Shown piece after piece: positions 6,955-21,881 of a stretch of 21,881 nucleotides of DNA; positions within the stretch are counted from its first letter, which is position 1; each line of letters opens with the position of its first letter. Made by a program: the position numbers and the translations under genes. The notes under the pieces were generated by a model. The model searched no databases, was not told the origin of the DNA, and was given only the letters and a program-made list of their open reading frames with translations. The stretch is from a virus (taxonomy: Duplodnaviria > Heunggongvirae > Uroviricota > Caudoviricetes): positions 1 through 21,881 of the IMG/VR virus record IMGVR_UViG_2671180357_000006; one strand, written 5' to 3'.

Positions 6955-9900
6955 TTACTTATTTATCGTCTCCGCAATATCAGTCAGAATGGCCTCCAGT
7001 CGCTCTCCTTCTTCCGGTCGGAAGTAAAGGATATTCGGGTTAAATCCGTAGAAAACGGTCGCATCCAGCTCCGGCAGATACTCTTTGCGTCCAACCAGGT
7101 CGGATGGTTTGCTCTTGTTGTTGAAGAGCGACGTCGCCCGGCTGCCACACGTCAGCACATAGGTCGGACGCACCAGATTTATCTCTTCACGCATAAAGTC
7201 GGTGAACTGGCCGATCTCGTCTTTGGTGTAGTCCTTCTCTTTGTCCTTCACCTTTTTGCACACGCCTGTGACGTAGAGATCGCCCATGCGCAGATCGCCT
7301 GCAGTAAGCAACTTCGCCTTAAAGTCGTCGTAGCCGTTCTCCATGAAGTAGCCGGTACGCCCATCATTGCCGTTCGCGTTGTCCAGAATGACCATGATTT
7401 TCGGCTTAATGCCAATGCTTGGGCGGATCAGGTCGTCTCCCAGACCCATTTCGGCCGCCATGCGAGTCATCAGTACATTCACCTCGGCAGAGCGCTTAGG
7501 GTTCATCTCGAACGGTCGAGAGGCTTTTACAGCGTCGATCACCAGATTGCCCATCAACTCTGCCTGGTCGCGCAGTCGTTCCGGATCTGTCGCTGGCAGA
7601 CTGCCAGACTCAATCGATGCGAACGCACCGACTTTTTGCAGCGACTCGCGTACCCGGCTGTTACATGCACGCTTCTCGACCGCTTCCTCAAATTGCGCCA
7701 GTGATTCGAATTTGCCGCCAACTTTCTCACGCGCTCTCATGATGGCCTGGCAACCATTCTCAGAGCAGCCTTTCACAGCAGAGAATGGTGCATACAGAAC
7801 CTGACTGCCGTCTTCCAGCGTGCGGATCTCAATTCGGTTAGATGACACGTTAACGTCTGGTGGCAATACGCGAATGCCATAGGTCAGCGCATCTTTAACC
7901 AGCCCCTGGTGCTTATCCTCGCCCAGAATGGTGAGCGCAGCAGCGAAGAACTCAGCAGGGTAATGTGTCTTTAACCACATAGACTGATAGCTGATTAAAG
8001 AATAAGCAACACTGTGTGATTTGTTGAAGGCATATCCACCGAACTTCTCAAAGGCGTCCCATATTTCTTGGGCTTTTTTCTTACTGAGACCTTCTTGTTC
8101 AGAGACGATCTCCACGTAGTCTATGCCGTCACTAATAGCCTCGCTGTAGCTTCTACGCTTACCGTCTGAGCAATCCAGTTTTGCGTGTTTGTGAACCTCT
8201 ACAGTACCTCCATTTTTGAGTGACAGTGTCACCCAGCCTGCTTGTGCTCGTTCTACAAAATCGCTGCCGATCGCTTTCATCTTATCCATGTTCTTTTTAC
8301 CGATAGCGGAACGCAGAGCGTCTGCTTCGGCCATAGAGAACCCGGCAAGTACTCGGGAACTTTGCATGATTTGTTCCTGATAGAGCAAAACACCATTAGT
8401 CTCCCGGGTGACTTCCTCAAGACGCGGATGAATTGAATGTGGAGCCATGAAGCCTTTGGCCACGGAGACATAGTCGTCCAACATGCCGGATTGGATCGGG
8501 CCAGGTCGGAAGAGTGCGGTCGTGGCGACAACGGTTTTGAAGCTCATTGGCTCAATGCCACCGCCCAGATCTTTAAGCAGCTTGCGCATGGGGCCGGACT
8601 CCAGCTGGAATACGCCCTGCGTGTACCCTGCAGCGAACCCATCCAGAACCTTACGATCGTCCAGTGGAATAGCATCGAGATTGATGTCTTCCCCGGTACT
8701 CTCTTTGATGTAGCGTTTCGCGCTATCCAGCAGATCGAGCGTTGCCAGACCGAGAACGTCCAGCTTAATCAGCCCCATCGCCTCGCAGTAACGTTTATCG
8801 AACGCAATACAGCGAGCGTTGCCACGCAGCTCGACGGGCGTGCGCTCTACCAGTGGAACGCCAGCGACGATCATCCCCGCAGCGTGACGACCAAAACCAC
8901 GCATCAGGCTTTGCAGCTTACACGCCGCTTTGAACGCTTCCGGGTTTTTCGTGGCGTATTTGTCCAGGCTGGCCAGTTGCTCGCGCAGCTCTTCCAGAGA
9001 CAGGCTATCGTCTTCCAGATTCTTGAACTCTTTGGATACCGCCATATCCGCAGCGTCGACACCGTAAATACGCGCAGTGTCTCGCAGCGCAGAAGCGGCG
9101 CCCAGATAGGTGAAGTTTGGAATACCGGCAACGTAATCTTCGCCATAGCGTTCATTCAGATACTCGATCACCTCATGACGACGTGCCTGGCTGAAGTCCA
9201 GATCCGCATCCGGTAAGTCAAGACGTTCAGGGTTGATGAAACGCTCAAACAGAAGACCGTGACGGATAGGATCGACGTTGGTTATGCCTATGCACCACGC
9301 CACCAGAGAACCGGCAGAGGAACCACGACCTGGCCCAACCGGTATTCCTGTTTCACGGCAGTGATTCATCAGATCGCGTACCATCAGGAAGTAGCCACAG
9401 AAGCCCAGACGGGTCAGTGTGTCCATTTCGTACTTCAGTCGCTCAACATACACTCGGTGCTCAGAAGCCGGTGGTGTGTAGCCAAACTCTTTAGTAGTTA
9501 GACGCTTGCGTAGCCCCGCGACAGCCAGCTTCATCAGCGTTGCAGGCTCGTCGTCTGCCATCTTGGGCAGTGCTGGTGGCAGTTCATGCCAGCGCCATGT
9601 GCAGGCTTCAATAATGGTGTCCTGCGTTGTTGAGACCATTGCAGCTGTTACCGGTACGCCCATGCGAACGGAGAAGGCTTTCAGCGCTTCAAGGAGATGG
9701 CGACGACCATTAACAGCGTTATCTCGCTGGTGGGGGATGCGCAGACGATGCGGCTGGTCGATTTTGATGTTGTTCGTAACCATGTGCGCAATGTCTTTAA
9801 TGTCAGCGTCGTCGATCGCTTCGTAATAAGCGGGATAGAACGCCACTGGCTCTATTTTCAGTGCGCTCGCCACTTTCATCGCCCGGACGTTAATCTGGTC

Positions 9901-10461
9901 GTAGAATGGGGTAGGGTGCGGATAAACCACGCTGTAGAAGTTATCGCGTCCTCCAGCTGTCACCAGCGTCCCGATAATCTTTGCGAAGTCCCGGCGCTGG
10001 AATACACTGCCAATGTCGGACGTCAGCAGGATGATGTTGCCTTTGGCATATGCGGCCGCCAGCTGGTCAAGTGCCAGACGCGGAACAAAGTAGAATTGCT
10101 CGCGCTTGTTGGCTAAGGTCATCAGTTCGCACACGTCGCGATAACCTTGCTCATTCTTTATCAGTGCCGTGAAGCAGTAGCTTCGATCACGCACCAATGA
10201 TTCCATACATCCTCCTGACTCTTTCGCCAGGCGGGCGCGATGCTCGTATGTCGGATCGTCGACCACATTCAGCTTAACACCACAAATAACCGCCATGTCG
10301 TCGCCAGCGGCACGCTGCAGGGGGATCACACTGGCAATGTTCATGCTGTCAGCGGAAATGACAGCGGTGTAGCCAGCGTCTCTCGCGATTTTCACCGCGT
10401 TTTCTGCTTTTAGAGCTGACTCTCCCAGGGAGAAGTCAGTTCTGACCATCAGAGCCTTCAT
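6955..10461 (-). CDS. DNA polymerase III alpha-type (DnaE family, C-family polymerase), 1168 aa, with a non-canonical C-terminal domain
   Basis: Strong DnaE motifs: [10 protein letters not shown]...[27 protein letters not shown]...[21 protein letters not shown] (palm with catalytic aspartates), FRPGP, [42 protein letters not shown]. The N-terminal PHP-like region lacks the His pairs. Confidence 0.92.
   Translation of the reverse strand: [1168 protein letters not shown]
6958..7404 (-). other. C-terminal ~150-aa domain of the DnaE-like protein resembling a family-4 uracil-DNA glycosylase fold with degenerate catalytic motifs
   Basis: [18 protein letters not shown]...LYVTGVCKK...[17 protein letters not shown]...[14 protein letters not shown] aligns by eye with family-4 UDG (LVLVGEGPGEEEDKTGRPF...VYITNIVKCRPP...IVPLGAVAA...FPMFHPAYLLRNP); GEGPG is replaced by DNANG and HP by NP. 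It sits where bacterial DnaE has its OB-fold and tau-binding region. Confidence 0.55.
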
Positions 10462-10639
10462 GTGCTTTTACCTTTCTGGTTTTCTTGATTTTGTCATTGG
10501 GGAAGCCAACGAACTTCCCATACATCGAAATCGCAACCTCTTTGGCTGACTGGTGGCACTCGGGTCTATCCGGACATGCCAAACAAGCACTGCCAGTTTC
10601 AGACGCTGCGATAAGAGAGCCGAAACATCCTTTACGCAC
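10436..10639 (-). CDS. possible small Cys-rich protein (67 aa, GTG start)
   Basis: ORF filling the 180-bp gap between the CobS-like stop and the DnaE start; contains CLACPDRPECH; overlaps the DnaE start by 26 nt. Could instead be non-coding leader. Confidence 0.25.
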   Translation of the reverse strand: MRKGCFGSLIAASETGSACLACPDRPECHQSAKEVAISMYGKFVGFPNDKIKKTRKVKAHEGSDGQN

Positions 10640-10641
10640 GA

Positions 10642-11877
10642 TTAACCAAAGATCTTCTGAACCACTTCACGCGCTGCCTGTGCAGACGTGGATGGAAGTT
10701 TATTGATAAACGACTTTTCGATGCCGGCAGAGAAATCACCGCGCATCATTCCGATTTTGGCGGACAGCAGCAGCTCACGAGGCCCGATTGGCTGGCTAAT
10801 CTGATGCTTTTCATAACCTTCACGGATAAGATTCGCGAACTTCACCATCTTCTCGGCGTATTCGCGGATGACGCCTGCTTCAGCCAGCATGTTGACTTCT
10901 GCCTTCGTACTCATGTACTTCACGTTTGAAACAATGCCAAAACGCGAGAAGTTCGCTGCGTTCTGGATGTTTGTGCCTTGATAGAGACCTGTTTCGTCGC
11001 CAGAGCCGTTAGTGTTGCCAGTGCCAATGAAGGCAAAGCGTTTATGCGGGGTGATGCGGCGCCAGTCCGCAGTTGCCTCTTTGATGATCAGCGGCTCTCC
11101 TTCAAGAACTGGCTGATACACACCCAGAATCTGCGGGAACGCGAAGTCATATTCATCAGCGAGGTAAACCCAACCATTTTTCATCGCCAGCGCTAGTAAA
11201 CCCGGTTCGAAATAGGTGGAACCATCGCGAGCGAGGATCTGGCCTGTAACGTGCGCTTCCTCCATAGACGCCGTATGCTGGGCGCGGATCAGTGGTCGAT
11301 TTAGCAGGGCACATAGCTGCGTAGGAAGAGAAGATTTACCGGTTCCTGCATGGCCCCAGAGATAACCCGGGATTCCGATTTCCAGCATCATGAAGATGTC
11401 TTTAATCAGGTCGAAGTCGCCATACACATAGTTCTTCTTCGCTTCCGGTACGAACTCCGGATATGGCGTGTTGACGTTGACTGTCACCTGTAGTGGCTTT
11501 CCGCGTGGCGTTCCCAGCTCTTTGATCGTTATGCCAAGCAGCTCGTGCGCGGCCACCAGTTCGGTCTTGTATTCGACCGTTCCTGCGTAGCCCGGATGTG
11601 CGCTAATCTCCGCTACTTTTCCTTCGCCTGAATGCTTTTCGGCACGCTTCTCATTGAGTTTGGCCAGTGCCGTGCGAGAGATCGTTGGTTCATCTGGAAA
11701 CGCAGAGGTGTACATCTTCACCACTTCGTCCACGTCCAGACCCTTCGCAGACTCAGGAATATTCTCGCAACGGCCCATAGAGATATGGGATTTCAGGTAA
11801 TGAAAGGATTTGCCACACCACTTGCAGACGATGGCTTCCGGCAAATGTTCTTCTTGCTGTAGTGCAGTAGCGGTCAT
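10642..11877 (-). CDS. CobS/MoxR-like AAA+ ATPase with N-terminal zinc-finger-like extension (411 aa)
   Basis: Walker A GHAGTGKSS, Walker B region VYLADEYDFAFPQILGVYQPVLEG, sensor region TNIQNAANFSRF as in CobS/MoxR. N-terminal CKWCGKSFHYLKSHISMGRC Cys/His cluster. TAAGGA RBS upstream. Confidence 0.8.
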   Translation of the reverse strand: MTATALQQEEHLPEAIVCKWCGKSFHYLKSHISMGRCENIPESAKGLDVDEVVKMYTSAFPDEPTISRTALAKLNEKRAEKHSGEGKVAEISAHPGYAGTVEYKTELVAAHELLGITIKELGTPRGKPLQVTVNVNTPYPEFVPEAKKNYVYGDFDLIKDIFMMLEIGIPGYLWGHAGTGKSSLPTQLCALLNRPLIRAQHTASMEEAHVTGQILARDGSTYFEPGLLALAMKNGWVYLADEYDFAFPQILGVYQPVLEGEPLIIKEATADWRRITPHKRFAFIGTGNTNGSGDETGLYQGTNIQNAANFSRFGIVSNVKYMSTKAEVNMLAEAGVIREYAEKMVKFANLIREGYEKHQISQPIGPRELLLSAKIGMMRGDFSAGIEKSFINKLPSTSAQAAREVVQKIFG

Positions 11878-11974
11878 GTGTTTTTTCCTTACTGTTTGTC
11901 GTTCGTGGGGTATATCTTATATAAATATATTAGGCTGTATAGTAAGTGATTACTTATTTTTACGGGTAAAGCTA

Positions 11975-14206
11975 TTACCCAAGAATGATACGAGATAGCT
12001 CAGTGACAACTGACGGCCCTAACTCTTCTACGCTGTTTACCAGCGCGTAATTTTTGTAGAAACGTCGTGGCTCGTCGGTCAGAATCCCGATAGCCATCAG
12101 ATCGATGTCGCTCAAGGTCTCAATTTCTTTGGTGACGGTTCGTAAATGCTGATGGAATCCACTACCTGTAGCACATGGCTCCCCATCACTCATAACCAGC
12201 ATGATCTTTTTGTCCTCCATTCGCCCTGCAAACAGGGTAGCCAGTTGCGCGATACTCTCACCATCGACGTTATTGAGCAGGGGGAACGTCTCACATACGC
12301 ATCCCATGCGAGCACGGATCTCTGGAGAGTTTGCTTTCTCATTCCAGTTTTTGATAATGGGCAGCATGAGCGCCTCGAAGCGTGTAAACCCGCGCTTCGA
12401 CCTAGTTTCATAATCTGGGCTACCGAACGTGGTAAAGCCGGTGATGATGTTGGGGACATTGATACGATCTAAAGCATCCGTAATGGTATAGGCACTGGCT
12501 AGGGCCAGTTGAATCTTCACGCCATCCATTGAGCCGGACAAGTCGATGACCTGCTGGACACACGCGTTCACCGCTCTATGGTCTTCCTTCTTGCGGAACA
12601 CTCGGTCGTCGTTCATTGCCAGACGATACAGGCTCGCGCCATGTATCCGCCCACGCCTCTGACCAGGTATAAACTGAACTCGGTTGCGGCTGGCGATGGC
12701 CCGCTCTAGGTCTTTGGCCAGCGTCGAAGAAACGCCTGCAGACAGATGTTTTTCGATTTTCAGTTCAAAGAGTTTTCTGCCTTCTGGCACCATACGGTAG
12801 CGGTCGACTGGTGAGTGCATTGGTATTGCACCGAACGTCTTTCTGGTGCGCTTCACATGCTCTTCGGCTCCATCAATCAACCCGATAAAGTCGTATGATC
12901 GATCGTATGGCCGATAATCAGAAGGTGAGACGCTCATAAGCTCTTTGCTGATGGTGGCCGACAGTGCGTCTTCGGTCATTTCACCGATTCCGTCTTCCAT
13001 CTCGTCGAGCGCCTTTAGCGCCTCCTCCAGAGTCATTTCATCCGGCGCAGGAACAAAGCCAGACTCACTGTCTTTGGGCACTTCCGCACCATCTTTATTT
13101 TTTTTGCCTTCGACGTCTTCTTCTTCAGTTTCCCCACGATCAGTATCGGAGTCCTCACCGCCATCACCATCGGTGTCAGAGTCACTTGATTTCATGCCGA
13201 TAGCATCGGATTCTGGGGTGTCTCCTGACTCTTCGTGGCCTGCTTCTGTATATTTACTTTCTGTATCACTAATATCTTTAACGTGTGTAGGTAAGTCCTT
13301 ATCTAACGAATCAGGCAAATCGGAATCCCCAGAATCTTCCTCTTCTGATGCATCATCTTCTCGTTCTTCCTTGTCATCGCCTTCGCCTTTGGCAGGCTTA
13401 GATGCAGAGTCACCATGAGACGGTTCGTCACCTGATTCTGGCGTTTCCTCGGACTCGTCTTTGCTCTCCGACGGCTTTCTGGAAGATGATTTAAGTTCTG
13501 GTAATTTGCCCTCTGGCTTGTCTTTCATATCCTGCATGATTTGGGCTATAGCAGCAGCGACCTTCACGCAATCCTCAGTGTTCGACATATTGCGAACGGC
13601 CACGTCTATACCATGCTCCTTTAGTAAGGCTACCGGCCTCTCGATAAGGCGCCAGTGTTCTTCCATAAAATCGATGAAGGGGCTTTGTCCATCCCAGGCG
13701 CGGACGACCGGGCAAAGGAAGAATTTCAAAAACAATTCACGCTGGTCTCCGTGACAGGCTAAAACCGCTTCTGGTACTTTATTCCTGAAGTATTTGTCGA
13801 TAACCAGACTCTGTGTTGCAAGTAAATTACGCCGGGTTCCGTTAAAGACCTGCCCCATTCTGCGTTCAATAAAAACGTCTTCCAGCGCATTCCAAAGCCC
13901 CGTAGACGGAGCCTTTCCTCTTTCGTGCATCTGCATTGCGACTTTCGGTTCAGTAAAGAGAATATGGGCCACCTCATGGTCGAGAAAACCACGCACTGCG
14001 TTCATGAGGGTTGGCGACGCGTCGTCCGGTATAGATGGGATGTTTACCAGCACTGGTTCGCCGCGCCGGTTATAGCGGACATATGCTTCATTGCCTCGTT
14101 CTGCAACAGGTATCTGTTTACCTGAAAGCATCGCTACAACTCGTTTTACACAGTCGCGAAAATCCTGCACCTCTTTCAGTACAGCTTTGGTGGTTTTTTT
14201 GGACAT
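11975..14206 (-). CDS. CobT-like von Willebrand factor A (vWA) protein with HExxH motif and long acidic linker (about 744 aa from the RBS-supported start)
   Basis: C-terminal vWA domain with MIDAS DLSGSM and SDGEP; central ~145-aa Asp/Glu/Ser-rich low-complexity region; N-terminal LDHEVAHILF (HExxH). Start reassigned to the ATG at 14204-14206 preceded by AAGGGA; the track's ATG at 14275 lies inside an inverted repeat. Confidence 0.8.
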   Translation of the reverse strand: MSKKTTKAVLKEVQDFRDCVKRVVAMLSGKQIPVAERGNEAYVRYNRRGEPVLVNIPSIPDDASPTLMNAVRGFLDHEVAHILFTEPKVAMQMHERGKAPSTGLWNALEDVFIERRMGQVFNGTRRNLLATQSLVIDKYFRNKVPEAVLACHGDQRELFLKFFLCPVVRAWDGQSPFIDFMEEHWRLIERPVALLKEHGIDVAVRNMSNTEDCVKVAAAIAQIMQDMKDKPEGKLPELKSSSRKPSESKDESEETPESGDEPSHGDSASKPAKGEGDDKEEREDDASEEEDSGDSDLPDSLDKDLPTHVKDISDTESKYTEAGHEESGDTPESDAIGMKSSDSDTDGDGGEDSDTDRGETEEEDVEGKKNKDGAEVPKDSESGFVPAPDEMTLEEALKALDEMEDGIGEMTEDALSATISKELMSVSPSDYRPYDRSYDFIGLIDGAEEHVKRTRKTFGAIPMHSPVDRYRMVPEGRKLFELKIEKHLSAGVSSTLAKDLERAIASRNRVQFIPGQRRGRIHGASLYRLAMNDDRVFRKKEDHRAVNACVQQVIDLSGSMDGVKIQLALASAYTITDALDRINVPNIITGFTTFGSPDYETRSKRGFTRFEALMLPIIKNWNEKANSPEIRARMGCVCETFPLLNNVDGESIAQLATLFAGRMEDKKIMLVMSDGEPCATGSGFHQHLRTVTKEIETLSDIDLMAIGILTDEPRRFYKNYALVNSVEELGPSVVTELSRIILG

Positions 14207-14787: not shown

Positions 14788-15177
14788 ATGGCTACCAACG
14801 AAACAAAAGAAGCTAAAGTAAGTCGCTACGCTGCTTACATTGACGCTTTAATCGCGATTTCTCCGAAAAGCCAGGCGACCATCGCGAAAGAAGCAGGCTA
14901 TAAAAACCCTAACAATCTTTCACTTATCAAGAGCGGCAAAATCCCGCTTCCGATCGACAAGGTCAGAGCGTTGGCTAAAGCATTGGATGCCGATTCGGTC
15001 CGATTGATGCTAATGGTGCTGGAAGAGCGTCATCCAGAGCTGTTAGCGTTTTTTCGCGACGAAGGCACAGCCCCTCTGACTAAAGATGAAAAACTAGTTC
15101 TGGAAGCCTTCCGTCGACGTTTCGGTGACCAACGTGGTGCGTCGGAGCGGGTTGTTGAGGCAATCAAGTCGCTATGA
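14788..15177 (+). CDS. putative HTH transcriptional regulator (130 aa from ATG; the track's TTG start at 14779 is less likely)
   Basis: SQATIAKEAGYKNPNNLSLIKSGKIPLPIDKVRALAKAL looks like a helix-turn-helix; AGG 9 nt upstream of the ATG; transcribed divergently from the 70-aa gene across a 256-bp AT-rich region; stop overlaps the integrase stop. Confidence 0.6.
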   Translation: MATNETKEAKVSRYAAYIDALIAISPKSQATIAKEAGYKNPNNLSLIKSGKIPLPIDKVRALAKALDADSVRLMLMVLEERHPELLAFFRDEGTAPLTKDEKLVLEAFRRRFGDQRGASERVVEAIKSL

Positions 15178-16275
15178 GAAATTTACACGGATTAGCTCAG
15201 TAGCGAGTCGATCTCCCTTGAACTTATGATCTATCTCCTCTAAATCCTGTTTCTCTACGATTGATGCGATGTACGCCGAAAAACTGTTTAAGGCGTCTCG
15301 CATCTCGTCTATATAATCGTGTCGATCGTATACTCGATCTATCCCCTCAAGACTGTGGTTCATAATTTTGCGGGATACCTCCTGACTTATGCCTAACGCG
15401 GGGAAGTAACTACGCGCAGTACGACGCAAATCTCGGGGAGTAAATGGCTCAAGCTCCATCAACTCTGGACGTTCTAAAATCCTTCTCAACGCCTGTGATA
15501 TGGCCACCTTAGACATTGGCACATCCTCACCCTGTTTCTTGTTTGAAGGAACAAGCCACTGGCTGCCTTTTCCGTATTTGATCAGCTCCTCAACACATTT
15601 GCGCATTAGCGGGCTTAATGGTAACGAGTGCTGGCGAGCCGATTTATTCCTCGTTCCTTGATTCCATAAATTATATTCGAGGTTGAATTCTGATCTTTTA
15701 GCTCGGAGCACTTCATCTGGTCGTCTGGCCGCTACAAGACATAATCTGGCCGCCCACTTTGTACCCTCACATACGTTGAAGTAGTCCCATACATTCCAAA
15801 AGACCCAGACCTCTGCGTCGGTCAGTTTGCGCTCGCGAGGCGTGGGCTTCGCGCCACCGGCTACTCTGTTAAGCGACATATCGTTCAATGGGGATGTATC
15901 AATTAAGCCCTGAAATGCACACCAACTGAGAAACTGCTTCATCAGCGAGAACACACGTCTGCCCTGGACGATCTTGCCCTCAAGTATTAATGGGTTCACC
16001 AGCTGGTTGACTAAAACCCTACTAATGTCACTTACTTTTACTTCACAGATATGCGGCATTACATGTATCAAAATACAATGAACAGCTATTTCAGGTCGAC
16101 GTCTCGTTATCAGCAAAGATAAGCGAGTGAATAACATGAATGCGGAAGAAAACGACATGTCACCGTCGAAATTGGTGGTCGACACTGCTGACAAGCCGGA
16201 AGCGCGTTCGAGATACTCGATGGCTTCTCTAGAGGTGTTTTCTGCTGCGCGTGCTTTATCAAAAGTGTTTTTCAT
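15172..16275 (-). CDS. int: tyrosine recombinase / integrase, P4-type catalytic domain; N-terminal arm-binding domain not recognisable
   Basis: Catalytic-domain motifs LTDAEVWVFWN, RLCLVAARRPDEVLRAKRSEFNL, TPRDLRRTARSY, IMNHSLEGIDRVYDRHDY (R..H-x-x-R..Y). The first ~70 residues do not resemble the usual P4-type N-terminus. Confidence 0.85.
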   Translation of the reverse strand: MKNTFDKARAAENTSREAIEYLERASGLSAVSTTNFDGDMSFSSAFMLFTRLSLLITRRRPEIAVHCILIHVMPHICEVKVSDISRVLVNQLVNPLILEGKIVQGRRVFSLMKQFLSWCAFQGLIDTSPLNDMSLNRVAGGAKPTPRERKLTDAEVWVFWNVWDYFNVCEGTKWAARLCLVAARRPDEVLRAKRSEFNLEYNLWNQGTRNKSARQHSLPLSPLMRKCVEELIKYGKGSQWLVPSNKKQGEDVPMSKVAISQALRRILERPELMELEPFTPRDLRRTARSYFPALGISQEVSRKIMNHSLEGIDRVYDRHDYIDEMRDALNSFSAYIASIVEKQDLEEIDHKFKGDRLATELIRVNFS

Positions 16276-16574: not shown

Positions 16575-16991
16575 TCAGCTAGAATGGAAACCTTCTGCGA
16601 CTTCAGCGAAGTAGCTGAGCAACCTAGTATCTCTTGCTGGCATACGATCGTGAGCTGGAGTGACTAGCCCCATCAGCAAAAAACGCCCGCTATCCCACAT
16701 GTGCTCGGTATAAACGAGATAGTGGTTTGAGGTTCGGTTGTAGTTCTCTTGCCTTGCGTTCCAGGTAAGCTGGAAATGCAAATTGACGTGAATATGCTGG
16801 ACATTAGCATCAACGGCGAACGGCGGGAAGTCAAATGGTGCATCTCGTCCAAGAAGATTAGATGGTGCGCCAGTTGATTTGTAAGTAATGAACTCGGATT
16901 TGAGCTGACTTTCTAGGTCAGGGTAAACGACAAAAGTGGGCTGAAAAAAATCATCCCACGTAACTTGACTGTATTCAGCCGTTAATGCCAT
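16575..16991 (-). CDS. hypothetical protein (138 aa), second gene of a two-gene cassette
   Basis: ORF with ordinary composition; start overlaps the stop of the upstream 182-aa gene by 10 bp (translational coupling). No recognisable motif. Confidence 0.5.
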   Translation of the reverse strand: MALTAEYSQVTWDDFFQPTFVVYPDLESQLKSEFITYKSTGAPSNLLGRDAPFDFPPFAVDANVQHIHVNLHFQLTWNARQENYNRTSNHYLVYTEHMWDSGRFLLMGLVTPAHDRMPARDTRLLSYFAEVAEGFHSS

Positions 16992-17530
16992 TTAGCCGCA
17001 GCCTTGTTGCCAGTCTCTAATAGATGGTTCATGGCTAAAAGGTTGACACCAGAGTCACGCACTACAGAAGTGCGTGTAATCTGATCAATCAGATTGAGAT
17101 AGTTTTTGGTCGCAATACTGACCATTTTAATAGCCTTAAAAAACGCAAACTCAACAGTGTTTTTTTCGTAAGACATGATGACGTCTTTTTCAGGTAACAT
17201 CAAAACAAAAGATTCTGCGATACCGGCTACATGAATAGTTTGATTCTTAATTTCTTCCGCTACTTTGATAGCAGCAAAGAAGTCAGTGTCAGCATAATGA
17301 GCAAGTTCAGCGCGGCTTGAACGCAGTTCTTTAGCCAATTCATTGAGAGCAGCTGTAAGATCACTGATGTCGGTTTTGTTGACTCTAGCGCCCATCTCAT
17401 AAACCCGTTCGACAATCGTAGGCTGACACGCAACCGCTTTGGGTTGCGGCTGGATACTGGCAAGAACCAGTGCCACTGCTGCCTGCAAATGCTGGATTTT
17501 AAATTTCACGATAGACTCCATAATCGTCAT
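16982..17530 (-). CDS. hypothetical protein (182 aa), first gene of a two-gene cassette
   Basis: ORF downstream of the tRNA terminator, co-oriented with the 138-aa gene. No recognisable motif. Confidence 0.5.
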   Translation of the reverse strand: MTIMESIVKFKIQHLQAAVALVLASIQPQPKAVACQPTIVERVYEMGARVNKTDISDLTAALNELAKELRSSRAELAHYADTDFFAAIKVAEEIKNQTIHVAGIAESFVLMLPEKDVIMSYEKNTVEFAFFKAIKMVSIATKNYLNLIDQITRTSVVRDSGVNLLAMNHLLETGNKAAAKWH

Positions 17531-17784: not shown

Positions 17785-17859
17785 TGGCGATGGTGGGTGG
17801 ACTCGAACCACCGACCAGTTGATTAACAGTCAACCGCTCTACCACTGAGCTACACCATC
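17785..17859 (-). tRNA. tRNA-Asn (anticodon GTT)
   Basis: Minus-strand sequence GATGGTG-TA-GCTC-AGTGGTA-GAGC-G-GTTGA-CTGTTAA-TCAAC-TGGTC-GGTGG-TTCGAGT-CCACC-CACCATC-G-CCA folds as a canonical cloverleaf with perfect 7-bp acceptor, 5-bp anticodon and 5-bp T stems, a TTCGAGT T-loop and encoded CCA. Confidence 0.88.
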
Positions 17860-18195: not shown

Positions 18196-19773
18196 TTATC
18201 CTCGTTTTTCCCAAAACTGTTTTGCCAGTTCGCTCAGAGCGCTAGTTAACTGAGCGACAGATTTCGCACTTTGCAAATTATTCTGCCCGGTCTGTACATT
18301 GGTATCAGCAGCATCGCGTATATTGATAATACTGCGGTTTATGTCTTCACTTACTGCTCCCTGCTGCTCGACCGCAGTCGCTATTTGCGCGTTCATGTCG
18401 GTAATTTCGTTAACGCGTTGGCCAATTCCATCAAGAGCTGTAGCTGCTTCCTCTGCGTGAGCTACACTCGTGTGCGCTTGCCGACTACTTTGCTCCATGA
18501 CTGTAACAGCGGATTGCGCTCGCTCTTGTAGAGCGCTGATCATGCTTTGAATATCCGTTGTCGATTGCTGTGTGCGAGCAGCAAGACTGCGAACCTCATC
18601 GGCGACAACAGCAAAACCACGCCCCTGCTCACCAGCACGCGCGGCCTCAATTGCTGCGTTGAGTGCCAACAAATTCGTTTGCTCGGCGATCCCTCGTATA
18701 ACGTCAAGAACTTTTGATATCTCGTTACTTTGACCTTCAAGCTCATGAATAACCTGAGTGGCTTGCCTAATTTCACCTTCAAGGGCAGTGATTGACTGGC
18801 TTGTGTGGGCTACCAGACGCTGGCCAGATGCCGTCTCAGTGTCTGCTCTTCCGGCCGCATCTGCAGCATGCTGTGCATTGCTCGCAACCTCTTGAATGCT
18901 TGCCACCATTTGGTTTACTGCCGTTGCTATTTGATCTGTCTCTGCCTGCTGCTCAACTGTAAGTACATTGCTTGACTCAATATCCTTTAGTAGGCCTCGG
19001 GTGTGTTCGCTAAGCCGATTTGATGCATCACCTATGCGACCTACTATGGCGCCTGTTTCAGCTTGCATCATTCGTAAAGCAAACTCTATTTGGCCAAACT
19101 CATCGGTGCGCCCAGTGTAGAGGGATTGACTTAATGGGTTATTGGAAATATTCCTGGCTCTTTCAACCAGTCTTCCAAGAGGAGAGAGAATAGCCAAAAC
19201 ACTAACAGAGCTTAAGCTTCCTGACATTAAAGTGGCTAACAATAAGCTGCTTATTGATGTATCAGTAAGCATGCCGGCAGCCATTGCGCTTGATATAATA
19301 CTACCCCATATGAGCAAGAGTATTTTCACGGAAAAGCTAGCAGCCAATTTCGGCCTCGCGGCCTTCCCGCTTCTCAATTGAGCATATAATTTTTCCGCAG
19401 CCAAAACCTGCTCAGGTTCAGGCTTGGTCCTTACAGACTGGTATTCAACAATCGAACCATTCTTAGCTATTGGCGTTACATAAGCACTTACCCAATAGTG
19501 GTCGCCATTTTTACAGCGATTTTTTACTAGCCCCATCCATGAGCGGCCAGATTTTAATGTACTCCACATATGCTCAAATGCAGCAGGCGGCATATCTGGG
19601 TGTCTTACGATGTTGTGAGGCTGGCCTAATAGTTCTTCCTCAGTGAAACCACTGATTTTAATGAAGTCAGGATTAACGTATGTGATATGGCTTTGAGGGG
19701 AGGTAGTCGAAAGAATATTGGCATCTTTTGGGAGTTCTAAGTTTCGACCCGTCACTGGTAAATTCTGGCGCAT
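18196..19773 (-). CDS. mcp: methyl-accepting chemotaxis protein with N-terminal PAS domain (Aer-like); transposon passenger gene (525 aa)
   Basis: N-terminus [75 protein letters not shown] parallels the E. coli Aer PAS region; the MCP signalling domain has [32 protein letters not shown]; hydrophobic segment in the middle; GAGG RBS upstream. Confidence 0.9.
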
Positions 19774-19924
19774 AAGAACCTCAAGGGTTGGCTGTTTTAT
19801 TTTATTGTTTTCGGCATTAAGCCCAATTTCTTGAGCGTTACGATAAAGCTAGCATGGAAACGATAGGTGCAAGCAAGTTAAGGGTTGCATCGCGCATGTC
19901 AATCTAGGCTATACCCTAACTTGA

Positions 19925-20075
19925 TGTCAGGCAGGGCCGCGCCGCTTCGTCAGAATAGAGTCTGCTTTCCCATTTTTTGACACATGCCCGCGAAGGTTAT
20001 AGATTTCAGCCTGACAGAAATGGGCTTTGAGGCACAACGGAACAGAAAGTGCACTTAAGCCGCCTTCAACCAAGG
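19925..20075. promoter_or_regulatory. res (resolution) site and tnpR promoter region of the transposon
   Basis: Clustered imperfect TGTCA/TGACA-type half-site pairs (TGTCAGGCAGG...CGTCAG, CGTCAGAATAGAGTCTG...TTGACA, TGACACATGCCC...CAGCCTGACA) between mcp and tnpR, as expected for Tn21-family res subsites; followed by an AAGGAG RBS before the tnpR GTG. Confidence 0.5.
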
Positions 20076-20082
20076 AGACATC

Positions 20083-20643
20083 GTGCAGGGGCACCGCATC
20101 GGCTACGTCCGGGTCAGCAGCTTTGACCAGAACCCGGAACGCCAGCTGGAACAAACCCAGGTGAGCAAGGTGTTCACCGACAAGGCATCGGGCAAGGACA
20201 CCCAGCGCCCCCAGCTCGAAGCGCTGCTGAGCTTCGTCCGCGAAGGCGATACAGTGGTGGTGCGCAGCATGGATCGGCTGGCCCGCAACCTCGATGACCT
20301 GCGTCGCTTGGTACAGAAGCTGACTCAGCGCGGCGTGCGCATCGAGTTCCTGAAGGAGGGCCTGGTGTTCACTGGCGAGGACTCGCCGATGGCCAACCTG
20401 ATGCTGTCGGTGATGGGGGCCTTCGCTGAGTTCGAGCGCGCCCTGATCCGCGAGCGGCAGCGTGAGGGCATCGCCTTGGCCAAGCAGCGTGGCGCGTACC
20501 GGGGCCGCAAGAAAGCCCTGTCCGATGAGCAGGCTGCTACCCTGCGGCAGCGAGCGACGGCCGGCGAGCCCAAGGCGCAGCTTGCCCGCGAGTTCAACAT
20601 CAGCCGGGAAACCCTCTACCAGTACCTCCGCACGGACGACTGA
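20083..20643 (+). CDS. tnpR: serine resolvase TnpR (Tn21/Tn1721 subgroup), GTG start
   Basis: MQGHRIGYVRVSSFDQNPERQLE... with the catalytic serine region, and C-terminal HTH ISRETLYQYLRTD; near-identical by recollection to Tn1721/Tn501-type resolvase. Confidence 0.95.
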   Translation: MQGHRIGYVRVSSFDQNPERQLEQTQVSKVFTDKASGKDTQRPQLEALLSFVREGDTVVVRSMDRLARNLDDLRRLVQKLTQRGVRIEFLKEGLVFTGEDSPMANLMLSVMGAFAEFERALIRERQREGIALAKQRGAYRGRKKALSDEQAATLRQRATAGEPKAQLAREFNISRETLYQYLRTDD

Positions 20644-20646
20644 CAC

Positions 20647-21881
20647 ATGCCGCGTCGCTTGATCCTCTCGGCCACGGAGCGGGACACCCTGCTTGCGCTG
20701 CCGGAAAGCCAGGATGACCTGATCCGCTACTACACCTTCAACGACTCCGACCTGTCGCTGATCCGCCAGCGACGCGGCGACGCCAACCGCCTCGGCTTCG
20801 CCGTGCAGCTCTGCCTGCTGCGCTACCCCGGTTACGCGCTGGGAACCGACAGCGAGCTGCCCGAGCCGGTCATCCTGTGGGTGGCGAAGCAAGTCCAGGC
20901 CGAGCCGGCGAGCTGGGCAAAGTACGGCGAGCGCGACGTGACCCGTCGCGAGCATGCCCAGGAACTGCGCACCTACCTGCAACTGGCCCCGTTCGGCCTG
21001 TCCGACTTCCGCGCCCTGGTGCGCGAGCTAACCGAGCTGGCCCAGCAGACCGACAAAGGCTTGCTGCTGGCCGGTCAGGCCCTGGAGAGCCTACGGCAGA
21101 AACGACGCATCCTGCCGGCGCTGAGCGTGATTGACCGGGCCTGCTCGGAAGCCATTGCGCGAGCCAATCGGCGGGTCTACCGCGCCCTGGTCGAACCACT
21201 CACGGACTCGCATCGGGCCAAGCTGGACGAGCTGTTGAAGCTCAAGGCCGGCAGCAGCATCACCTGGTTGACCTGGCTGCGCCAGGCACCGCTGAAACCC
21301 AACTCTCGGCACATGCTGGAACACATCGAGCGGCTGAAGACATTTCAGTTGGTGGACTTGCCCGAAGGCCTGGGCCGGCACATCCACCAGAACCGCCTGC
21401 TCAAGCTGGCCCGCGAGGGTGGGCAGATGACGCCCAAAGACCTCGGTAAGTTCGAGCCGCAGCGCCGCTACGCGACCCTGGCCGCCGTGGTGCTGGAGAG
21501 CACCGCGACCGTGATCGATGAGCTGGTCGATCTGCATGACCGCATCCTGGTCAAGCTGTTCAGCGGCGCGAAGCACAAGCATCAGCAGCAGTTCCAGAAG
21601 CAGGGCAAGGCGATCAACGACAAGGTGCGCCTGTACTCCAGGATCGGCCAGGCGCTGCTGGAAGCGAAGGAAAGCGGCAGCGACCCCTATGCCGCCATCG
21701 AGGCGGTGATTCCCTGGGACGAGTTCACCGAGAGCGTCAGCGAGGCCGAGCTGCTGGCCCGGCCGGAAGGCTTCGACCACCTGCACCTGGTCGGCGAGAA
21801 CTTCGCCACCCTGCGCCGTTACACGCCGGCCTTGCTGGAGGTGCTGGAACTGCGCGCCGCGCCGGCCGCGCAAGGCGTGCT
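20647..21881 (+). CDS. tnpA: Tn3-family transposase TnpA, 5' partial (first ~411 codons; runs off the window end)
   Basis: ATG at 20647, 3 nt after the tnpR stop; translation [44 protein letters not shown]...[12 protein letters not shown]...[10 protein letters not shown]... matches the Tn21-family TnpA N-terminus. Absent from the ORF track because no stop is reached. Confidence 0.92.

What the first reader, a model, noticed from the sequence alone, without database searches (positions are those of the whole stretch)
10642..14206. CobS-like AAA+ / CobT-like vWA pair with added Zn-finger and HExxH features inside a replication module
Two adjacent genes encode a MoxR/CobS-class AAA+ ATPase and a vWA protein with MIDAS motif and long acidic linker, the architecture of aerobic cobaltochelatase CobS/CobT. 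Here they sit immediately upstream of the polymerase, with no cobalamin genes nearby. The ATPase has an N-terminal Cys/His cluster and the vWA protein carries an HExxH metallopeptidase-like motif. The function of such pairs in mobile elements is unresolved; AAA+/vWA pairs also occur in defence and chaperone-like systems.
Basis: partly seen in the sequence, partly recalled or inferred. Interest (0 to 1): 0.6.

Follow-up and report, generated by a model that had tools for sequence, protein, structure and literature searches.

The report
Phage CobS/CobT-like ATPase–adaptor gene pair
Two neighbouring genes of an SSU5-type phage-plasmid of E. coli encode a motor ATPase and its adaptor related to the cobalt-chelatase subunits CobS and CobT; the pair is already known to be common in phages, almost certainly does not make vitamin B12 here, and its real job is still unknown.

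Summary
On the minus strand, 14206-11975 encodes a 743-aa CobT-like protein: an M48-like domain with HEVAH, an acidic linker, a shaft and a vWA/MIDAS domain. 11877-10642 encodes a 411-aa CobS-like MoxR-class AAA+ ATPase. It lies 180 nt upstream of dnaE.

The window is an SSU5/pHCM2-type phage-plasmid of E. coli, where the pair is routinely annotated "porphyrin biosynthesis protein". Phage cobST clusters and phage MoxR + peptidase-vWA pairs are already published.

What I add:
- HExxH is not an addition. Canonical CobT has the same fold but lacks the motif, whereas 148 of 150 representative relatives keep it.
- The Cys/His cluster is a Ros/MucR-type zinc finger (hhalign 94%). It is conserved in the DnaE-linked clade and absent from canonical and cyanophage CobS.
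- The order CobT-like, CobS-like, DnaE, gp32, FEN, RecA holds in 8 of 8 distant relatives.
- No cobN or cobalamin gene occurs in the window or the SSU5 genome, and both proteins score far below the NCBIfam CobS/CobT cut-offs.

Most likely it is a CobST-like motor-adaptor complex retargeted to a non-CobN client, probably one associated with DNA. Function is inferred, not shown. Interest is moderate.

The parts
11975..14206 (-). CobT-like adaptor gene (743 aa; a longer ORF is open from 14275)
   Evidence: Pfam CobT E 5e-35 and CobT_C E 5e-107. RefSeq annotates it as 'cobaltochelatase CobT-related protein'.
13502..14206 (-). N-terminal M48-like (gluzincin-like) domain, aa 1-235
13964..13978 (-). 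HEVAH motif (aa 77-81)
   Evidence: H77, E78 and H81 are invariant in the 48-sequence alignment A1 and 99-100% conserved in a 127-sequence alignment. HExxH is present in 148 of 150 representative clusters.
13865..13891 (-). NALEDVFIE helix (aa 106-114) carrying E109, D110 and E114, candidate third zinc ligand
   Evidence: E109, D110 and E114 are invariant. The equivalents of E109 and E114 are also kept in canonical CobT.
12932..13501 (-). Acidic linker, presumably disordered (aa 236-425)
   Evidence: 66 Asp/Glu and 27 Ser in 190 residues. The canonical CobT linker is disordered in cryo-EM.
12569..12721 (-). Segment equivalent to the CobT 'shaft' that enters the CobS ring pore (about aa 496-546)
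   Evidence: It aligns to canonical CobT upstream of the vWA domain. It is conserved in consensus A1. The shaft is described.
11978..12568 (-). vWA domain with MIDAS (D555, S557, S559, N646, D674)
   Evidence: 28% identity to canonical CobT over the shaft plus vWA region, E 2e-21.
10642..11877 (-). CobS-like MoxR-class AAA+ ATPase gene (411 aa)
11638..11844 (-). N-terminal Ros/MucR-type zinc-finger domain (aa 12-80; C18, C21, H26, H31, C37; Y56, P61, S67)
   Evidence: hhalign against real MucR proteins gives Prob 93.6% and 94.2%, E about 1e-7. There are weak Pfam ROS_MUCR hits in 7 of 10 relatives. The residues are invariant in A4 and A6. AF2 pLDDT is 89-97.
10645..11385 (-). AAA+ core and lid (aa 165-411); Walker A at 11332-11355, Walker B at 11146-11163
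   Evidence: Invariant residues include G175, G178, G180, K181, D241, E242, N288 and R312.
10436..10639 (-). 67-aa Cys-containing ORF between the CobS-like gene and dnaE (same position as SSU5_051); it is not conserved in distant relatives
6955..10461 (-). DnaE-type polymerase (PHP, pol3 alpha, finger, HHH and a UDG-like tail), the conserved downstream neighbour

Best explanation
The two genes encode the phage version of the CobS/CobT motor-adaptor complex.

Shown by homology:
- The CobS-like protein is a MoxR-class AAA+ ATPase with intact ATPase motifs.
- The CobT-like protein has the four canonical CobT modules. An M48-like N-domain docks on the ATPase lid in the solved CobST. An acidic linker is disordered there. 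A 'shaft' enters the ring pore. A vWA domain faces the client through its MIDAS.

Inferred:
- In this element the client is not CobN and the product is not cobalamin.
- The complex is a core, probably co-transcribed, part of the phage-plasmid's DNA replication and recombination block. It most likely remodels a DNA-associated protein during phage DNA replication, or loads or unloads a metal on such a protein.
- Two lineage-specific features fit that reading. A Ros/MucR-type zinc finger on the ATPase would place the ring on DNA. The intact HExxH...E site on the adaptor could cleave the captured client.
- The identity of the client and any proteolysis are unproven.
For: Identity:
- Pfam, PDB and PHROG matches.
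- Polar CobS-contact residues of canonical CobT_N, R76, D80 and N130, correspond to R72, D76 and N127 here. D76 and N127 are invariant in the phage clade.
- The MIDAS residues and the shaft segment are conserved.

Not a chelatase:
- NCBIfam equivalog scores are 85 against a cut-off of 558 for CobS, and 69 against 759 for CobT.
- No cobN or cobalamin gene occurs in the window or in the whole SSU5 genome. SSU5's own ribonucleotide reductase is annotated as the aerobic NrdA/NrdB type, which I take from my own knowledge to be B12-independent.
- E. coli is not a B12 producer and Salmonella uses CbiK (PMC10206600).
- The gene order is reversed relative to four cellular cobS-cobT loci.
- HExxH is kept in 148 of 150 clusters but is absent from four canonical CobTs.

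Replication link:
- The synteny CobT-like, AAA_5, DnaE, gp32, FEN, RecA holds in 7 of 8 representative relatives with 31-44% N-domain identity. The eighth contig ends before the polymerase gene can be identified.
- It also holds in phages BUCTxx99 and phiK7B1.
- In the T4-like cyanophage S-PM2 the pair lies between gp46 and gp45. In Vibrio phage JSF23 it lies upstream of the helicase and PolA genes.
- No minus-strand terminator-like site lies in either intergenic gap; the only minus-strand hit is a weak 5-pair stem inside the CobT-like ORF, and the scan found fewer sites than its shuffled controls.
- In SSU5 the structural module is elsewhere, at 1-26 kb.

Zinc finger.
Against: - There is no experimental datum on any phage CobST-like pair.
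- Synteny within one large phage lineage may reflect ancestry. Placement among early and middle genes may reflect timing rather than function.
- The zinc finger is absent from the cyanophage, Vibrio-phage and canonical CobS sequences aligned here.
- The His ligands of HExxH are replaced in BUCTxx99 (REVST) and phiK7B1 (SEISK). Neither feature can therefore be essential to the core function.
- Iyer et al. proposed a virion-assembly role for the homologous pair in jumbo phages (PMC7824862).
Confidence: 0.45

Rival explanations
1. It is a genuine auxiliary metabolic gene pair. The phage CobS and CobT join a host CobN to raise cobalt insertion and cobalamin supply. This is the hypothesis of Liu et al. 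2021 for viral cobST clusters.
For: There is real homology to CobS and CobT, including the lid contact, shaft and MIDAS. The hypothesis is published (PMC8651126). Many annotations say 'porphyrin biosynthesis'.
Against: - The hosts of this clade lack the aerobic pathway. E. coli makes no B12 and Salmonella uses CbiK; that Klebsiella and Yersinia also lack CobN is my own knowledge and was not tested.
- No cobN occurs in the window or in SSU5.
- The scores are far below the equivalog cut-offs.
- The catalytic-looking HExxH is conserved but has no role in a chelatase.
- SSU5 carries an aerobic NrdA/NrdB reductase, of the kind I know to be B12-independent.
Confidence: 0.06
2. It is a virion-assembly chaperone and protease. 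The MoxR-vWA pair would help assemble and process structural proteins, as proposed for T4-like jumbo phages and shown for the tail of Acidianus two-tailed virus.
For: Iyer et al. 2021 describe the same architecture, a MoxR ATPase plus a vWA protein with an N-terminal metallopeptidase, and propose this role. MoxR-vWA pairs are generic assembly chaperones.
Against: In SSU5-type genomes the pair is separated from the structural module and embedded in the replication block. The same holds in S-PM2, where it lies between gp46 and gp45. A DNA-binding-type zinc finger is not expected for a capsid or tail chaperone.
Confidence: 0.12
3. It is a host-takeover or counter-defence device. The machine would capture and cleave, or strip off, a host protein such as a nucleoid-associated silencer or a defence protein bound to phage DNA.
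For: It combines an intact zincin motif, a MIDAS capture domain and an AAA+ motor. The MucR-type finger belongs to a family of AT-rich DNA binders. The pair lies among early or replication genes.
Against: There is no match to known defence or anti-defence models. Conservation as a single-copy core gene across very different hosts argues for a phage-internal client. HExxH is lost in two lineages.
Confidence: 0.15
4. It is a metal-cofactor insertase for a phage replication or nucleotide enzyme, for example the di-metal site of NrdB, the PHP domain of DnaE or the zinc site of the gp32-like SSB. It would act by analogy with NorQ/NorD and CbbQ/CbbO.
For: The closest characterised relatives all deliver or remodel metal sites or active sites (CobS, CbbQ, NorQ). 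SSU5 encodes NrdA/NrdB, a PHP-bearing DnaE and a gp32-like protein.
Against: There is no specific evidence for any client. A protease-type active site is not needed for metal insertion. Phages with B-family or A-family polymerases also carry the pair.
Confidence: 0.12

Closest known systems
Aerobic cobaltochelatase motor-adaptor CobS/CobT (CobSTN; PDB 9ujv, 9uka; preprint 10.64898/2026.07.21.739949)
   Same: - A MoxR-class AAA+ ATPase.
- The adaptor has an M48-like N-domain, an acidic linker, a shaft and a vWA-MIDAS domain.
- Two or three of the four polar lid-contact residues and all MIDAS residues are conserved.
   Different: - No CobN partner or cobalamin pathway.
- Scores are 7- to 11-fold below the equivalog cut-offs.
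- HExxH is intact here and absent in the four canonical CobTs examined.
- The ATPase carries an extra zinc finger.
- The gene order is reversed.
- The linker is about 190 aa against about 90 aa.
Phage cobST cluster, also described as MoxR + peptidase-vWA pair (T4-like cyanophage 'CobS' + 'Peptidase'; PMC8651126; PMC7824862)
   Same: - Adjacent genes in the order adaptor then ATPase.
- HExxH N-domain, vWA domain, and location in the replication and recombination gene region.
- Function unknown (PMC9983427).
   Different: - The cyanophage ATPase has no zinc finger.
- The cyanophage adaptor's vWA domain is much more diverged, with BLASTP E 0.036 against 2e-21 to canonical CobT.
- The neighbouring polymerase is B-family gp43 rather than DnaE.
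MoxR-vWA remodelling pairs NorQ/NorD and CbbQ/CbbO
   Same: An AAA_5 hexamer plus a vWA adaptor. By the literature as I recall it, the adaptor's MIDAS grips a client, and the pair works as an ATP-driven remodeller or metal-site maturase (sequence matches only).
   Different: Similarity is much weaker (E 6.5e-8 and 1.9e-4). Those adaptors have no zincin N-domain and no DNA-binding finger, and their clients are respiratory or carbon-fixation enzymes.
Ros/MucR prokaryotic zinc-finger DNA-binding domain (Pfam PF05443)
   Same: The motif I-x-C-x2-C-G...H-L...H...E-Y and the following aromatic/Pro segment align. hhalign gives 94% probability, E about 1e-7.
   Different: - It is fused to an AAA+ ATPase instead of the MucR oligomerisation domain.
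- It has an extra invariant His26.
- In the SSU5 subgroup the last His is replaced by Cys37.
- Pfam scores are below the gathering cut-off, and there is no structural match.
M48/M56 gluzincin metallopeptidases (Ste24/ZMPSTE24, BlaR1)

Membership tests
Cobaltochelatase CobS/CobT (functional equivalogs) | Sequence reaches the curated equivalog scores (TIGR01650 and TIGR01651) | tested here: not met
   85.3 bits against a cut-off of 558.55, and 69.4 bits against 759.05.
Cobaltochelatase CobS/CobT (functional equivalogs) | A CobN partner and the aerobic cobalamin pathway in the same genome or host | tested here: not met
   None is present in the window or in the complete SSU5 genome. E. coli is not a B12 producer and Salmonella uses CbiK (PMC10206600). 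Host chromosomes were not scanned directly.
Cobaltochelatase CobS/CobT (functional equivalogs) | ATP-dependent cobalt insertion into hydrogenobyrinic acid a,c-diamide | not testable with these tools
   This needs a biochemical assay.
CobS/CobT superfamily (homology and architecture) | A MoxR-class AAA+ ATPase with Walker A and B motifs, plus an adaptor made of N-domain, acidic linker, shaft and vWA-MIDAS | tested here: met
Phage MoxR + metallopeptidase-vWA pair (phage cobST cluster) | Adjacent AAA_5 and vWA genes in a phage genome, with an HExxH N-terminal domain on the vWA protein | tested here: met
   Described in PMC7824862 and PMC8651126.
Gluzincin (M48-like) metallopeptidase | HExxH plus a downstream Glu on the following helix, both conserved | tested here: met
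   H77, E78, H81, E109 and E114 are invariant in 48 aligned sequences (A1) and 99-100% conserved in 127. The model places them on consecutive helices.
Gluzincin (M48-like) metallopeptidase | Significant fold or profile match to a peptidase family | tested here: inconclusive
Gluzincin (M48-like) metallopeptidase | Zinc binding and peptide-bond hydrolysis | not testable with these tools
   This needs biochemistry. The motif is replaced in BUCTxx99 and phiK7B1.
Ros/MucR zinc-finger domain | Cys2-His2 ligands in the MucR register with the flanking H-L and E-Y motif | tested here: met
   C18, C21 and H31 are invariant. H36, or C37 in the SSU5 group, sits at the MucR fourth-ligand position.
Ros/MucR zinc-finger domain | Pfam PF05443 gathering score | tested here: not met
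   The best relative scores 23.2 bits against 25.4. The window protein itself has no hit. Profile-profile comparison nevertheless gives 94%, so I call it MucR-type, not a Pfam member.
Ros/MucR zinc-finger domain | Ros87-like fold and DNA binding | tested here: inconclusive
Known anti-phage defence AAA+/vWA systems | Match to a PADLOC model | tested here: not met
   No hit for either protein.

The most novel reading that the evidence does not exclude
The SSU5-type pair may be a DNA-tethered AAA+ plus zincin machine. The zinc finger would park the ring on DNA, the vWA MIDAS would seize a DNA-bound protein, and the ATPase and the HExxH site would extract and cleave it. That would clear roadblocks or silencers from the replicating phage genome. 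It would be a bacterial-virus analogue of the eukaryotic Cdc48/p97 with Wss1/SPRTN system, and the ancestral activity from which the cobalt chelatase motor was later recruited.
Probability: 0.12. Interest if true: 0.8.

Novelty: new variant of a known kind. Interest (0 to 1): 0.4.

Why it matters
"cobS" is a near-universal single-copy gene of marine T4-like cyanophages and is widely counted as a vitamin-B12 auxiliary metabolic gene, although nobody has shown what it does (PMC9983427). The same pair sits in more than a thousand roughly 100-kb phage-plasmids of Klebsiella, E. coli, Acinetobacter, Salmonella and Yersinia.

E. coli and Salmonella, which are genetically tractable, do not use the CobN pathway: E. 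coli makes no B12 and Salmonella inserts cobalt with CbiK. The SSU5, Cyrano and pHCM2 elements are therefore a clean system in which to find the real client and role. If the role turns out to be in DNA replication, many "porphyrin/cobalamin biosynthesis" annotations and AMG tallies in viromics would need correcting.

The comparison also suggests that the chelatase adaptor CobT derives from a metallopeptidase-bearing ancestor.

Tried and rejected
- The first whole-database protein search with the CobT-like protein returned only 99-100% identical E. coli entries and gave no diversity. The representative-cluster search replaced it.
- The search for related loci with the CobS-like protein returned only SSU5-like contigs at 80% identity or more.
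- tblastn with the ATPase N-terminus alone found only SSU5-like phages.
- A Pfam scan of 48 adaptor relatives at E up to 1 gave no peptidase family.
- PADLOC gave nothing.
It was redone with database proteins.
- I considered reading C-x2-C-x4-H-x4-H as a retroviral-type zinc knuckle. I dropped this in favour of the MucR-type assignment, which has profile support.
- The AAA_5 genes of Herelleviridae and of Acinetobacter phage Ab15 were checked as further context examples. They belong to a different, more distant pair, with the ATPase followed by a protein of about 290 aa, so they were not used.
- The promoter and terminator scan gave fewer sites than shuffled controls. It was used only to note that no terminator-like site lies in the gaps between the three genes.
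- Literature searches found no experimental work on the pair in SSU5-type elements and no mention of a MucR-CobS fusion.


Full report
**What the window is.** The 3.6-kb region is 99.8% identical to 106-kb plasmids of E. coli such as pBL12EC-1. It occurs in 34 of 5426 complete E. coli genomes, always on plasmids, and is 92.5% identical to Salmonella phage SSU5. The window is therefore a piece of an SSU5/pHCM2-type phage-plasmid. Its minus strand carries a long co-directional replication and recombination block: CobT-like, CobS-like, a 67-aa ORF, DnaE, then (after one plus-strand HTH gene) a gp32-like SSB, a 5'-3' exonuclease and a RecA-like recombinase interrupted by an intein.

**Check of the observation.**
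- The CobT-like ORF (14206..11975, 743 aa from the start with a ribosome-binding site) matches Pfam CobT (E 5e-35) and CobT_C (E 5e-107).
- It has HEVAH at residues 77-81 and a 190-residue linker that is 35% Asp/Glu. Its MIDAS residues D555, S557, S559, N646 and D674 align with those of the solved CobT.
- The CobS-like ORF (11877..10642, 411 aa) is an AAA_5 ATPase. Its best solved relative is cobaltochelatase CobS (E 1.5e-25), ahead of midasin, CbbQ and NorQ.
- Walker A, Walker B, sensor and arginine positions are invariant in a cross-family alignment. The Cys/His cluster is C18, C21, H26, H31 and C37.
- dnaE begins 180 nt downstream of the CobS-like stop codon.

**How ordinary the pair is.** CobS-like matches occur in 792 phage records, among them cyanophages, Vibrio, Rhizobium, Klebsiella and Pseudomonas phages. 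CobT-like vWA matches occur in 1021 PLSDB plasmids, mostly elements of about 100-115 kb from Klebsiella, Escherichia, Acinetobacter, Enterobacter, Yersinia and Salmonella.

The adaptor's N-domain alone has 953 representative clusters at E of 1e-3 or better. PHROGs files the ATPase under "porphyrin biosynthesis".

The literature already states three things:
- The cobST two-gene cluster is widespread in tailed viruses, and cyanophage cobT is often called a peptidase (PMC8651126).
- T4-like jumbo phages have a MoxR ATPase plus a vWA protein fused to an N-terminal metallopeptidase (PMC7824862).
- The function of cyanophage cobS is unknown, although the gene is present at about one copy per myo-cyanophage (PMC9983427).

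The pair is thus a known kind of thing.

**The HExxH domain.**
- An AlphaFold model of residues 1-245 is confident (pLDDT 90.3). It shows a helix, a three-stranded sheet, the HExxH helix, and a following helix carrying E109, D110 and E114.
- A July 2026 preprint on the CobSTN holoenzyme independently describes the crystal structure of canonical CobT_N with exactly this topology and calls it M48C-like. It also shows that CobT_N docks on the CobS lid, that a shaft preceding the vWA domain enters the ring pore, and that CobN sits between CobT_N and the MIDAS face.
- H77, E78, H81, E109, D110 and E114 are invariant in the 48-sequence alignment A1 and 99-100% conserved in a 127-sequence alignment. 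HExxH is present in 148 of the 150 best representative clusters.
- Four canonical CobTs (Shinella, Pandoraea, Cereibacter, Sphingomonas) instead have D-SMAL, D-AAAL or D-AFAL at that position, while keeping the two Glu residues.
- The motif is therefore not something added to a chelatase subunit. The chelatase subunit is the form without the motif.
- The motif is also replaced in two phage lineages, BUCTxx99 (REVST) and phiK7B1 (SEISK), so catalysis is not universally required.
- Of the canonical residues that contact CobS, R76, D80 and N130 correspond to R72, D76 and N127 here. D76 and N127 are invariant in the phage clade, which argues that the phage proteins form the same kind of complex.

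**The Cys/His cluster.**
- In eleven ATPases of the DnaE-linked clade, 22-39% identical in this region, I16, C18, C21, H31, Y56, P61 and S67 are invariant and H26 nearly so.
- In a further set of 119 full-length relatives, all but one N-terminally truncated sequence carry C-x2-C-x4-H-x4-H by my inspection; a stricter pattern that also required the last ligand matched 107.
- Seven of ten relatives give weak hits to the zinc-finger part of Pfam ROS_MUCR, with E from 7.6e-5 to 0.05, all below the gathering score. Four database relatives carry a precomputed PF05443 hit.
- I fetched five real MucR genes from plasmids. Profile-profile comparison then gives 93.6% and 94.2% probability (E 2e-7 and 1e-7) with two almost independent phage alignments. 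The aligned segment runs from the CxxC through the H-L...H to the E-Y motif.
- The finger is absent from canonical, cyanophage, Vibrio-phage and Staphylococcus-phage ATPases.
- I found no paper that mentions this fusion.

**Against a chelatase role here.**
- Both proteins score far below NCBIfam's equivalog cut-offs: 85 against 558, and 69 against 759.
- Neither the window nor the full SSU5 genome has cobN or any cobalamin gene. SSU5 carries an aerobic NrdA/NrdB reductase, thymidylate synthase and DHFR. That this reductase type does not need B12 is my own knowledge.
- E. coli does not make B12, and Salmonella inserts cobalt with CbiK (PMC10206600).
- In four cellular loci the order is cobS then cobT. 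In every phage examined it is adaptor then ATPase.

**Context.**
- Eight representative adaptor clusters with 31-44% N-domain identity were looked up. All eight show CobT-like followed by AAA_5.
- In seven of them a DnaE gene follows after zero to three small genes, often with a UDG tail, then gp32 and the 5'-3' exonuclease, with RecA next wherever the contig extends far enough. The eighth contig ends inside a 573-aa product that was not looked up.
- A tyrosine integrase often lies just upstream.
- BUCTxx99 and phiK7B1 have the same arrangement.
- In S-PM2 the pair lies between gp47/gp46 and gp45/gp44. In Vibrio phage JSF23 it lies a few genes upstream of the helicase and PolA genes.
- The association with replication genes thus crosses three polymerase families. 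It could still reflect a shared expression class rather than a shared function.

**Verdict.** The finding is real and correctly described, but it is a known, widely annotated phage gene pair of unknown function.

My best reading (confidence 0.45) is a CobST-like motor-adaptor complex working on a non-CobN client, probably one associated with DNA, in support of phage replication. The zincin site and the MucR-type finger would be lineage-specific elaborations.

The rivals are a cobalamin auxiliary gene pair (0.06), a virion-assembly chaperone (0.12), a host-takeover device (0.15) and a metal insertase for a replication enzyme (0.12). None can be excluded without experiments.

Noticed in passing
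window 1076-3415 (-): The RecA/UvsX-like recombinase is interrupted by a LAGLIDADG intein directly after the Walker A motif GPPSAGK. SSU5's orthologue has no intein.
   Followed up: partly
window 6955-7680 (-), C-terminus of DnaE: The polymerase ends in a UDG-superfamily domain. Pfam E is 0.003 here, and the domain is clear in distant relatives. In some relatives the gene is split, in one case by an HNH/NUMOD4 endonuclease gene.
   Followed up: partly
window 15172-16275 (-) and loci L092, L093, L095, L097, L098: A tyrosine integrase lies just upstream of the CobT-like gene, both here and in five of eight distant relatives. This is a conserved position for a recombinase in plasmid-like phages.
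   Followed up: no
window 16575-17530 (-): A YafO-family toxin gene (E 1e-19) with an overlapping upstream partner gene, as in pBL12EC-1. tRNA-Asn lies at 17785-17859.
   Followed up: no
window 18196-21881: The right end departs from pBL12EC-1. It has a PAS-HAMP-MCP chemoreceptor gene (18196-19773) and a serine resolvase (20083-20643), and GC rises to 65%. It looks like a transposon insertion.
   Followed up: no
window 10436-10639 (-): A 67-aa ORF with a CLACPDRPEC motif lies between the ATPase gene and dnaE and overlaps the dnaE start. It matches the position of SSU5_051. The small genes at this spot differ between relatives, and some resemble sigma-70 region 2.
   Followed up: no
L082 6997-8982; L083 6841-8925: The adaptors of Stenotrophomonas phage BUCTxx99 and Pseudomonas phage phiK7B1 have lost both His residues of HExxH (REVST, SEISK). 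They keep the Glu residues, the zinc finger on the ATPase and the DnaE synteny.
   Followed up: partly
L087, L089, L090, L091 versus all phage loci: Cellular loci have cobS before cobT, and two of them sit next to BolA and J-domain genes. Phages always have the adaptor before the ATPase.
   Followed up: no
L085, L107, L108: In Herelleviridae (Staphylococcus and Listeria phages) and in Acinetobacter phage Ab15, the AAA_5 gene is followed by a protein of about 290 aa and lies among small unknown genes. This appears to be a different, more distant MoxR-type pair that is also labelled 'porphyrin biosynthesis'.
   Followed up: no
phage record OV696614.1 (Escherichia phage Cyrano): The ATPase is annotated 'cobalamin synthetase'. 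I read this as a mix-up between the Pseudomonas nomenclature (CobS as chelatase subunit) and the Salmonella nomenclature (CobS as cobalamin synthase).
   Followed up: no
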